From the NCBI RefSeq assembly GCF_003334255.1, contig NZ_QOWU01000009.1: a DNA stretch of 64,000 bases. One strand, 5' to 3'. Below the pieces are notes generated by a model that was not told where the DNA came from, did no database searches, and was given only the letters and a program-made list of their open reading frames with translations. Of this stretch, positions 10,119-10,946 are shown piece after piece (the stretch's first letter is position 1; each line of letters begins with the position of its first letter). This DNA is from Escherichia coli (GTDB taxonomy: Bacteria > Pseudomonadota > Gammaproteobacteria > Enterobacterales > Enterobacteriaceae). The position numbers and the translations under genes were made by a program.

Positions 10119-10454
10119 GTGAACCTTCTTTTTCAAGCTGCCAATGATTTGCTTTAAACACACAGAATATATGTGGTTTCGAATGTTTTTCGACCGACGA
10201 TTATCCCCTGCATCGACCGAATACCCGAGATCATATGCTGCTTGAGGATTTCTACCGTAATCTGGATCACTTTAAGTGTCGGTTTTTACCCCTTAATTAT
10301 TAATTTGTGAAATAGATCACCGCTTTGGGATTACTACCAAAAATAGTTGCGCAAACATCTTGAAATTTTGCTAATGACCACAATATAAGCTAAACGCGAT
10401 TCGCAACCCATTCAGGTAGCCGGGGTTAACCGGCTGCTATTACAGGAGAAACCT

Positions 10455-10931
10455 TTGCGCTGGTTACCTTTTATTGCCATTTTCCTTTATGTCTATATTG
10501 AGATTTCAATCTTTATTCAGGTTGCCCATGTATTGGGGGTATTGCTGACCCTCGTGCTGGTTATATTCACGTCAGTTATCGGTATGTCACTGGTACGTAA
10601 CCAGGGCTTTAAGAATTTCGTGCTGATGCAGCAAAAAATGGCGGCGGGTGAAAACCCAGCGGCGGAGATGATTAAAAGTGTTTCGCTGATCATTGCTGGT
10701 TTGCTGCTTTTATTACCGGGCTTTTTTACCGACTTCCTCGGTCTTCTACTTTTATTGCCGCCGGTGCAAAAGCATCTGACAGTGAAGTTGATGCCGCATT
10801 TGCGCTTTTCTCGCATGCCTGGCGGCGGTTTTAGCGCCGGGACCGGTGGCGGTAATACTTTTGATGGTGAGTACCAGCGAAAGGATGATGAGCGCGACCG
10901 CCTTGATCATAAAGACGATCGCCAGGATTAA
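10455..10931 (+). CDS. fxsA: FxsA inner-membrane protein (suppressor of F-plasmid exclusion of phage T7)
   Basis: ORF track 158 aa beginning at a TTG codon; recognised as FxsA. Confidence 0.9.
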   Translation: MRWLPFIAIFLYVYIEISIFIQVAHVLGVLLTLVLVIFTSVIGMSLVRNQGFKNFVLMQQKMAAGENPAAEMIKSVSLIIAGLLLLLPGFFTDFLGLLLLLPPVQKHLTVKLMPHLRFSRMPGGGFSAGTGGGNTFDGEYQRKDDERDRLDHKDDRQD

Positions 10932-10946
10932 TGTCGAAACGCCGGA

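What the first reader, a model, noticed from the sequence alone, without database searches (positions are those of the whole stretch)
10455..10931. fxsA, a phage-exclusion-related membrane protein, with a non-ATG start
FxsA is known to relieve F-plasmid-mediated exclusion of phage T7 when overproduced; its native role is unclear. The reading frame opens at a TTG codon, and the C-terminus is a highly charged Asp/Arg/Lys-rich tail (DGEYQRKDDERDRLDHKDDRQD).
Basis: partly seen in the sequence, partly recalled or inferred. Interest (0 to 1): 0.3.

Follow-up and report, generated by a model that had tools for sequence, protein, structure and literature searches.

The report
E. coli fxsA gene, TTG start
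This is the already-annotated Escherichia coli heat-shock membrane-protein gene fxsA, correctly read by the first stage (TTG start and charged tail included); it is ordinary, apart from a start codon that is never ATG in any related species and a conserved RNA hairpin in its leader.

Summary
Window 10455..10931 (+) is the E. coli K-12 fxsA gene. It is base-for-base identical to the RefSeq CDS (158 aa, WP_001267448.1) and present once in all 5,426 complete E. coli genomes. The TTG start is real. No in-frame ATG/GTG/TTG lies upstream before a stop, AGGAG sits 6 nt upstream, the family models begin at residues 6-8, and codon periodicity of conservation begins at this codon. The next ATG (codon 44) would remove two conserved helices. 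The quoted tail is exact (residues 137-158, 16 of 22 charged) and has no predicted structure.

New details:
- The homologous start is GTG (86) or TTG (26), never ATG, in 112 copies.
- The leader carries a sigma-32 promoter, then an 8-9 bp hairpin with compensatory changes at all 8 pairs and no Rfam family.
- fxsA lies upstream of groES on the same strand in 76/76 loci with enough downstream sequence; yjeH is absent in 10 of them.
- A tail motif TxEGE[YF]xR is conserved in distant relatives.

The native function remains unknown. The only ascribed activity is titration of F-plasmid PifA on overproduction. Low interest.

The parts
10359..10386 (+). sigma-32 (RpoH)-type promoter of fxsA: -35 cTTGAAA (10359-10365), 13-nt spacer, -10-like CACAATAT (10379-10386). 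The inferred transcription start is near 10393.
   Evidence: TTGAAA is >=95% conserved in 108 orthologous upstream regions, and the -10 consensus in other genera is CACCATCT, against the sigma-32 consensus CCCCATnT. The aspA-fxsA spacer gives an RpoH-holoenzyme SELEX peak of 19.2, named among the highest peaks just after the top one, ybeD (PMC5493296). The fxsA promoter is used as a sigma-32-dependent reporter (PMC6505264; bioRxiv 10.1101/406918). The transcription start itself is inferred, not mapped here.
10415..10438 (+). Conserved hairpin in the fxsA leader: GGTAGCCGG-ggttaa-CCGGCTGCT. The consensus 8-bp helix pairs 10416-10423 with 10430-10437. It ends 5 nt before the SD.
   Evidence: E. 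coli fold. A hairpin with dG <= -8 kcal/mol is present in 99/103 distinct leaders. RNAalifold finds 8 pairs, all with compensatory changes. 88.4% of cells are paired, against 71.0% in shuffles (0/500 reach it) and 31-54% when partners are slid; 114 double-change cells against 39 expected. No Rfam match. Function unresolved.
10444..10448 (+). Shine-Dalgarno sequence AGGAG, 6 nt upstream of the start codon.
   Evidence: Sequence. (A)CAGGAG(A) is conserved at this spacing, with entropy 0.1-0.4 bits at -11..-6 across 102 distinct orthologues.
10455..10457 (+). TTG initiation codon.
   Evidence: It is the first possible start after the upstream stop and the start of the RefSeq CDS. The homologous codon is GTG in 86 and TTG in 26 copies, ATG in none. 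Codon periodicity starts here.
10455..10931 (+). fxsA coding sequence: 158 aa plus a TAA stop.
10464..10799 (+). Membrane core, residues 4-115. Predicted helices are 4-27, 29-63, 69-86, 90-100 and 102-115. E16 (helix 1), G43, P88 and G89 are invariant. F90 and D93 of the PGFxTD turn between helices 3 and 4 are nearly invariant.
   Evidence: AlphaFold2 model with pLDDT above 90 over most of residues 1-115. Hydropathy profile. Conservation in 69 relatives of 29-70% identity.
10800..10928 (+). C-terminal tail, residues 116-158: a Gly-rich linker followed by TFDGEYQRKD...HKDDRQD.
   Evidence: No secondary structure predicted and block pLDDT 58-70 from residue 121. 16/22 residues charged. The motif T-x-[ED]-G-[ED]-[YF]-x-R is kept in distant relatives, G138 is nearly invariant, and the motif is duplicated in some.
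10936..10982 (+). Intrinsic terminator of fxsA: an 11-bp stem (10936-10946 with 10966-10976) followed by UUUUUCGUUUU. Its loop and 3' arm lie inside the last codons of the convergent yjeH gene (stop codon at 10947-10949).
   Evidence: Fold of -24 kcal/mol, z = -3.8, with 0/200 shuffles as stable. The terminator scan finds its inner part. yjeH coordinates come from the RefSeq annotation.

Best explanation
This is the chromosomal gene fxsA of Escherichia coli K-12 type, a monocistronic unit between the divergent aspA and the convergent yjeH. It is transcribed from a sigma-32 (heat-shock) promoter about 60 nt upstream, through a leader that folds into a conserved hairpin, and ends at an intrinsic terminator 5 nt after the stop codon. 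Translation starts at TTG 10455, helped by a strong, well-spaced AGGAG.

The product is a 158-residue inner-membrane protein. It has a compact helical core (four membrane-spanning segments, with an invariant buried Glu16 and a PGFxTD turn) and an unstructured, highly charged tail that the positive-inside rule places in the cytoplasm.

Shown here: identity, start codon, promoter motif, hairpin, terminator, predicted fold and synteny.

Taken from the literature: induction by sigma-32 and misfolded-protein stress, and relief of F exclusion of T7 on overproduction because FxsA holds the F-plasmid protein PifA at the membrane.

Inferred: the T7 phenotype is a titration side-effect, not the native role. 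The weak, never-ATG start codon keeps the protein scarce, which is why only overproduction gives the phenotype. The native role is in membrane or protein homeostasis during heat and envelope stress, given the sigma-32 control and the ancient position directly upstream of groES-groEL.
For: Identity: 100% DNA identity to MG1655, and the annotated CDS has the same ends. Pfam and NCBIfam FxsA models match. The gene is single-copy in 5,426/5,426 complete E. coli genomes.

Start: as detailed in the observation check.

Promoter: conserved TTGAAA-N13-CAC(C/A)AT(C/A)T; a high RpoH SELEX peak (PMC5493296); use as a sigma-32 reporter (PMC6505264).

Membrane core and disordered tail.

Synteny: aspA is divergent upstream in 92/92 loci with enough upstream sequence. 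groES is downstream on the same strand in 76/76 loci with enough downstream sequence. yjeH is interposed in 66/76. fxsA lies directly upstream of groES in ten enterobacterial genomes and in five distant relatives of 43-71% identity.

PifA sequestration is the only ascribed function, and fxsA rises 4.4-fold on phiX174 infection together with the heat-shock response (PMC8125068). FxsA interacts with PifA (PMC9599605). The gene is monocistronic and non-essential (PMC11954222).

Not a defence or phage family: no PADLOC or PHROG match. The family is very large, with 8,110 cluster representatives at E <= 1e-3; I take that to be far wider than the range of hosts that carry F (my own knowledge, not measured).
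Confidence: 0.85

Rival explanations
1. The protein really starts at the first in-frame ATG (codon 44, GMSLV...), giving a 115-residue product, and the TTG is an annotation artefact.
For: ATG is the usual start codon. No direct N-terminal data were found.
Against: No Shine-Dalgarno precedes codon 44 (sequence). Residues 1-43 are the most conserved part of the family, with invariant E16 and G43. Codon periodicity begins at the TTG. The family HMMs start at residues 6-8. In many orthologues the first internal Met falls elsewhere, at codon 27, 31, 34 or 56. The predicted fold needs helices 1-2.
Confidence: 0.02
2. FxsA is natively a phage-related factor, either a host defence modulator or an anti-abortive-infection 'antidote', and the F/T7 phenotype reflects its true function.
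For: The only phenotype on record is phage-related. fxsA is among the most induced genes on phiX174 infection. One adaptive-evolution study links mutations in the aspA-fxsA-yjeH region and in ompT to phage resistance, but the mutations were not tested separately.
Against: The phenotype needs non-physiological overproduction. The gene is core in E. coli, not part of a mobile defence island, and the family has thousands of clusters. There is no PADLOC or PHROG match. Induction on infection is explained by the general sigma-32 response.
Confidence: 0.07
3. FxsA is a small ion- or proton-conducting or lipid-handling membrane protein. The invariant membrane-embedded Glu16 and the PGFxTD turn form a functional site, and the conserved TxEGEYxR tail motif gates it or docks a partner. 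Heat-shock control reflects a need to adjust membrane properties.
For: E16, G43, P88 and G89 are invariant, D93 is nearly invariant, and the tail motif with the nearly invariant G138 is conserved across relatives of 29-70% identity. The helical core is predicted with confidence.
Against: This rests on conservation alone. There is no fold or sequence similarity to any channel or transporter and no experimental hint in the accessible literature.
Confidence: 0.15

Closest known systems
FxsA of Escherichia coli K-12 (WP_001267448.1; gene named by Wang, Cheng and Molineux 1999, cited in PMC10824729)
   Same: It is the same gene: identical DNA, the same CDS ends, and the same neighbours dcuA-aspA / fxsA / yjeH / groES-groEL.
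   Different: Nothing differs.
FxsA family (Pfam PF04186; NCBIfam NF008528; called 'UPF0716 protein FxsA' by some sources)
   Same: Full-length match to the family models. It shares the invariant E16, G43 and P88-G89 and the tail motif.
   Different: The enterobacterial subfamily always uses GTG or TTG, whereas some distant members use ATG. The leader hairpin is confined to Enterobacteriaceae and was not found in the 71%-identity relative L114.
PifA-mediated F exclusion of phage T7 (an abortive-infection system of the F plasmid)
   Same: FxsA is linked to it functionally: overproduced FxsA sequesters PifA in the membrane and lets T7 grow (PMC8125068; PMC9599605).
   Different: fxsA is chromosomal, core and heat-shock regulated. 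It is not part of the F system or of any catalogued defence system. No pifA was looked for or seen in this locus.
RNA thermometers in leaders of heat-shock genes (ROSE-like element of ibpA, fourU elements)
   Same: A conserved hairpin in the 5' leader of a sigma-32-controlled gene.
   Different: The fxsA hairpin does not contain the SD or the start codon. It is predicted to stay folded to 65 C (pair probability 0.92). SD accessibility barely changes from 30 to 45 C (0.42 to 0.50). It matches no Rfam family. It therefore does not work like a thermometer.

Membership tests
FxsA family (Pfam PF04186 / NCBIfam NF008528) | Significant full-length match to the family profile, above the curated cut-off | tested here: met
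   Pfam E = 2.3e-33, 115 bits, residues 8-110 on model positions 2-104 of 109. NF008528 scores 112.4 bits against a cut-off of 40.
FxsA family (Pfam PF04186 / NCBIfam NF008528) | Small polytopic inner-membrane protein: four hydrophobic helices followed by a hydrophilic C-terminal tail | tested here: met
   Hydropathy profile and an AlphaFold2 model with helices 4-27, 29-63, 69-86 and 90-115 and a disordered tail. This is prediction only; the experimental topology (Cheng et al. 2004) is recalled from memory because the paper could not be read.
FxsA family (Pfam PF04186 / NCBIfam NF008528) | Conserved residues of the family (Glu in helix 1, the PGFxTD turn) | tested here: met
   E16, G43, P88 and G89 are invariant, and F90 and D93 nearly invariant, in 69 diverse relatives.
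E. coli fxsA locus | Orthologous position between aspA and groES-groEL | tested here: met
   RefSeq annotation of MG1655. aspA upstream in 92/92 and groES downstream in 76/76 orthologous loci with enough flanking sequence.
E. coli fxsA locus | Overproduction suppresses F exclusion of T7 through interaction with PifA | not testable with these tools
   Literature only (PMC8125068; PMC9599605).
sigma-32 (RpoH) regulon | Promoter with TTGAAA at -35 and a CCCCATnT-like -10 at 13-15 nt spacing, bound by the RpoH holoenzyme | tested here: met
   cTTGAAA-N13-CACAATAT at 10359-10386; the -35 is >=95% conserved and the -10 in other genera is CACCATCT. RpoH SELEX peak of 19.2 (PMC5493296). The E. coli -10 matches only 5 of the 7 specified consensus positions. 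The consensus is quoted from memory (Nonaka et al. 2006), because the paper is not held under the id tried.
Anti-phage defence systems (PADLOC-DB) / phage protein families (PHROGs) | Match to a model of a known or candidate defence or phage protein | tested here: not met
   No family at E <= 0.1 in either library.
RNA thermometer (for the leader hairpin) | Temperature-labile structure that sequesters the SD or start codon | tested here: not met
   The helix lies upstream of the SD. It is predicted to be stable to 65 C, and SD accessibility is nearly independent of temperature.

The most novel reading that the evidence does not exclude
fxsA expression in Enterobacteriaceae is held down after transcription by a conserved, undescribed module. 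The module is a structured leader hairpin (maintained by compensatory changes, no Rfam family) plus an obligately non-ATG start codon (GTG or TTG in 112/112 copies). The amount of this heat-shock membrane protein would then be under selection to stay low. The hairpin would be a new cis-regulatory RNA element, for example a stabiliser, a pause or attenuation site, or a binding site.
Probability: 0.35. Interest if true: 0.35.

Novelty: already known. Interest (0 to 1): 0.15.

Why it matters
As a finding it matters little. The gene, its TTG start and its odd overproduction phenotype are already in the reference annotation and in papers from 1999-2004.

The modest value added is threefold. First, the TTG/GTG start is an evolutionarily fixed feature with a clear signature. 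That corrects mis-extended N-termini in public Salmonella, Klebsiella and Yokenella protein entries. Second, the gene carries a conserved leader structure that nobody appears to have described. Third, its ancestral position directly upstream of groES-groEL and its sigma-32 promoter point to heat-shock and membrane stress as the place to look for the still-unknown native function of a very widespread protein family (over 8,000 sequence clusters).

Tried and rejected
1. Downstream ATG start (codon 44): rejected by conservation, periodicity, SD position and family-model coverage.

2. Upstream extension: impossible in E. coli, which has no start codon before the in-frame stop. In other genera the upstream in-frame ATGs overlap the SD (GGAGATGCCAGTG) or precede it (AATGAAGGAG), so they are unlikely starts. 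They explain the longer gene calls such as P0014, P0024 and P0077.

3. Direct experimental evidence for the start: the Term-seq supplements (PMC7815308), the Ribo-RET preprint (no supplements held) and the TRAINSPOTTER N-terminomics supplements (PMC13245402) contain no fxsA entry.

4. Primary fxsA papers (PubMed 10497016, 15302217) and the sigma-32 regulon paper: the first two are not held, and the third is not held under the PMC id I tried.

5. Defence-system or phage-family membership: no PADLOC or PHROG hit.

7. Known RNA family for the leader or terminator: no Rfam hit at E <= 1.

8. Leader hairpin as an RNA thermometer: rejected.

9. Leader hairpin as an insulator that keeps the ribosome-binding site open: not supported. 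Breaking the 5' arm in silico changes mean accessibility only from 0.43 to 0.41.

10. Leader hairpin as a conserved intrinsic terminator: not supported. By eye, a long T run follows it in only a few genera (sequences), and the automated tail count was confounded by extra downstream pairs in the MFE folds.

11. Pairing between the leader 5' end (CGCGA) and the start codon region in the E. coli MFE: not pursued, because both partners are nearly invariant and covariation cannot test it.

Full report
OBSERVATION. The window carries a 158-codon ORF at exactly 10455..10931 on the + strand, opening at TTG and ending in ...DGEYQRKDDERDRLDHKDDRQD. The 801 bases around it are 100% identical to E. coli K-12 MG1655 and many other strains. 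In the RefSeq record the fxsA CDS ('FxsA family protein', WP_001267448.1) has exactly these ends. The neighbours are dcuA(-), aspA(-), fxsA(+), yjeH(-) and groES-groEL(+). The protein matches Pfam FxsA (PF04186, E = 2.3e-33, residues 8-110) and NCBIfam NF008528 (112 bits, cut-off 40). The gene is present once in each of 5,426 complete E. coli genomes.

THE START CODON. Five lines of evidence agree on TTG 10455.
- It is the first ATG/GTG/TTG after the upstream in-frame stop.
- AGGAG lies at 10444-10448, 6 nt upstream.
- A degenerate DNA pattern for the conserved peptide YVY[IV]EISIFIQVAHV retrieved 112 stretches from one-genome-per-species Enterobacteriaceae. Adding the window and the MG1655 locus, 112 of 114 copies could be scored. 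The homologous codon is GTG in 86 and TTG in 26 and is never ATG, and it is always preceded by (A)CAGGAG(A).
- Over 102 distinct sequences, the 3-nt periodicity of conservation begins at this codon. Entropy is 0.50/0.03/0.91 bits at codon positions 1/2/3 of codons 2-11, and a flat 1.07-1.24 upstream apart from the SD. The first base of the start codon is G in 79 and T in 23.
- The next ATG is codon 44. Starting there would remove helix 1 and most of helix 2, including the invariant Glu16.

TTG is seen in Escherichia, Salmonella, Citrobacter, Intestinirhabdus and one Leclercia-like genome, and GTG everywhere else. At least two G/T changes therefore occurred, and none to A. In some genera an in-frame ATG overlaps the SD (GGAGATGCCAGTG) or precedes it (AATGAAGGAG). 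These explain the N-terminally extended gene calls in public databases: MVVADGYDLQESPLRW in Salmonella, MKETPVRW in Klebsiella oxytoca, and the Yokenella entry.

Outside the family Enterobacteriaceae the same (G/T)TG-Arg-Trp start is seen in relatives of 71%, 60% and 45% identity. More distant or AT-rich lineages use ATG. I found no direct N-terminal or initiation-site data for FxsA.

THE TRANSCRIPTION UNIT. Upstream lies a sigma-32-type promoter, cTTGAAA (10359-10365), a 13-nt spacer and CACAATAT (10379-10386). The -35 is at least 95% conserved, and the -10 of other genera reads CACCATCT, close to CCCCATnT. The aspA-fxsA spacer gives an RpoH-holoenzyme SELEX peak of 19.2, named among the highest just after the top peak (PMC5493296). 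The fxsA promoter is used as a sigma-32-dependent reporter of misfolded protein (PMC6505264; bioRxiv 10.1101/406918).

Five nucleotides after the stop codon a strong hairpin (10936-10976, -24 kcal/mol, z = -3.8) followed by UUUUUCGUUUU makes an intrinsic terminator. Its 3' half lies inside the last codons of the convergent yjeH. This fits the published statement that fxsA is monocistronic (PMC11954222).

A CONSERVED LEADER HAIRPIN. Between the inferred transcription start (about 10393) and the SD lies a 9-bp hairpin, GGTAGCCGG-ggttaa-CCGGCTGCT (10415-10438). Orthologous leaders have a hairpin in the same place but with different stem sequences. Examples are Enterobacter CAGGGGCC/GGCACCTG, Citrobacter CAGACGTT/AACGCCTG, Mangrovibacter CAGGTAGC/GCTGCCTG and Pseudocitrobacter CGTGAAGGC/GCATTCACG. 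99 of 103 distinct leaders fold to -8 kcal/mol or better within 44 nt.

On a 72-sequence alignment RNAalifold predicts 8 pairs, each with compensatory double changes. 88.4% of cells are paired, against 71.0 +/- 1.1% in column shuffles (0/500 reach it) and 31-54% when the partners are slid by 1-3 columns. There are 114 double-change cells against 39 +/- 7 expected. No Rfam family matches.

What the hairpin does is unresolved.
- It does not contain the SD. It is predicted to remain folded to 65 C, and SD accessibility hardly changes between 30 and 45 C, so it is not a thermometer.
- Breaking it in silico barely alters accessibility of the ribosome-binding site.
- By eye, only a few genera (Kosakonia, Atlantibacter) have a long T run after it, so it is not a conserved terminator (sequences).
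- It is missing in Pseudescherichia, which has a shortened leader, and in the 71%-identity relative.

An mRNA-stabilising, pausing or factor-binding role remains possible.

THE PROTEIN. AlphaFold2 on a 69-sequence alignment gives a confident core (mean pLDDT 85, above 90 over most of residues 1-115). The helices are 4-27, 29-63, 69-86, 90-100 and 102-115, and the tail from about residue 116 is unstructured. Hydropathy shows two hydrophobic blocks, 2-42 and 75-103, each long enough for a helical hairpin. The positive residues (R2; R48, K53, K61, K74; the tail) place the N-terminus, the central loop and the tail in the cytoplasm by the positive-inside rule. This agrees with the four-span topology I recall from Cheng et al. 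2004, a paper I could not read.

E16, G43, P88 and G89 are invariant across relatives of 29-70% identity. G28, G51, P68, G82, L85, F90, D93, G96, L100, P102 and G138 are nearly so.

Its composition is not what is conserved; the short motif T-x-[ED]-G-[ED]-[YF]-x-R is, and it is duplicated in some distant relatives.

There is no solved structure or informative fold relative. There is no match to defence-system or phage-protein libraries. The family is very large: 8,110 cluster representatives at E <= 1e-3 and 3,446 at E <= 1e-10.

GENE NEIGHBOURHOOD. aspA is divergent upstream in 92/92 orthologous loci with enough sequence. groES follows on the same strand in 76/76. yjeH is interposed in 66 of those 76. 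In ten enterobacterial genomes, and in five distant relatives, fxsA lies only about 140-280 nt upstream of groES. The ancestral arrangement is therefore fxsA-groES-groEL, and yjeH is a later insertion.

HOW IT MOST LIKELY WORKS. Shown here or in the literature: sigma-32 drives transcription under heat or misfolded-protein stress, and fxsA is also among the most induced genes on phiX174 infection (4.4-fold, PMC8125068). The mRNA is translated from a weak TTG with a strong SD. The product inserts in the inner membrane.

From the literature: at wild-type level it has no known phenotype and is non-essential. When overproduced it binds or sequesters the F-plasmid protein PifA in the membrane, which blocks the PifA-dependent abortive response to T7 gp1.2 and gp10.

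Inferred: the T7 effect is a titration artefact. The never-ATG start keeps the protein scarce. The native role lies in membrane or protein homeostasis alongside GroES/GroEL. The invariant buried Glu and the conserved tail motif suggest a specific site and a cytoplasmic partner, but nothing tested here identifies them.

COMPARISON AND NOVELTY. The feature is not merely a member of the FxsA family. It is the type gene, and the annotation already starts at TTG.

The small additions are the fixed non-ATG start across the family Enterobacteriaceae and beyond, the covarying leader hairpin, the ancestral fxsA-groESL linkage and the conserved tail motif. They are of specialist interest only. The hairpin is the one item that could be new as a regulatory element.

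SCORES. Interest 0.15. The most novel reading that the evidence does not exclude is a conserved post-transcriptional restraint module (hairpin plus obligate weak start): probability 0.35, interest 0.35 if true.

Noticed in passing
window 10415-10438 (and the same position in loci L002-L113): The fxsA leader holds a structurally conserved hairpin with compensatory changes at all 8 consensus pairs. It matches no Rfam family. It is not a thermometer, not a conserved terminator and not an obvious RBS insulator, so its function is unknown.
   Followed up: yes
window 10947-12203 (yjeH); loci L008, L018, L027, L031, L046, L047, L061, L089, L100, L108 and L114, L117-L120, L122: yjeH appears to be a later insertion. 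In ten enterobacterial genomes and in five distant relatives, fxsA lies about 140-280 nt directly upstream of groES on the same strand. The ancestral arrangement is therefore fxsA-groES-groEL.
   Followed up: partly
window 10306-10320: A CRP-like box, TGTGA-aataga-TCAC, lies in the aspA-fxsA spacer. It is highly conserved across genera. It presumably serves aspA regulation, but it sits only about 45 nt upstream of the fxsA -35.
   Followed up: no
window 10936-10982: The fxsA terminator hairpin overlaps the last codons of the convergent yjeH (stop at 10947-10949). The A-tract before it and the T-tract after it suggest that it may terminate both genes.
   Followed up: partly
proteins P0014, P0020, P0024, P0077 (Salmonella, Klebsiella oxytoca, Yokenella): Public protein entries for FxsA in these genera carry spurious N-terminal extensions of 5-13 residues. 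Gene callers preferred an upstream ATG over the conserved TTG/GTG start.
   Followed up: partly
protein P0001 (E. coli, 172 aa): One E. coli FxsA variant carries a 14-residue tandem duplication (GLLLLLPGFFTDFL) spanning the invariant PGF turn between helices 3 and 4.
   Followed up: no
loci L009 and L048 (Pseudescherichia vulneris and a related MAG): The leader is shortened. The sigma-32 -10 box CACCATCT sits about 25 nt from the SD and the hairpin is absent. This is a natural deletion variant that could be used to test the hairpin's role.
   Followed up: no
proteins P0165 and P0207 (distant FxsA relatives): The tail motif T-x-[ED]-G-[ED]-[YF] occurs twice in some distant relatives, which suggests that it is a modular short linear motif.
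   Followed up: no
window 10444-10450 with 10480-10486: In the E. coli minimum-free-energy fold of the leader plus the first 11 codons, the SD AGGAGAA pairs with UUUUCCU in codons 9-11. The mean SD unpaired probability over 108 leaders is only about 0.45. This may be a further brake on translation, but there is no covariation evidence.
   Followed up: no
E. coli genome search: Three of the 5,426 genomes have their fxsA match on a record labelled as a plasmid. These may be mislabelled replicons or large chromosomal segments carried on plasmids.
   Followed up: no
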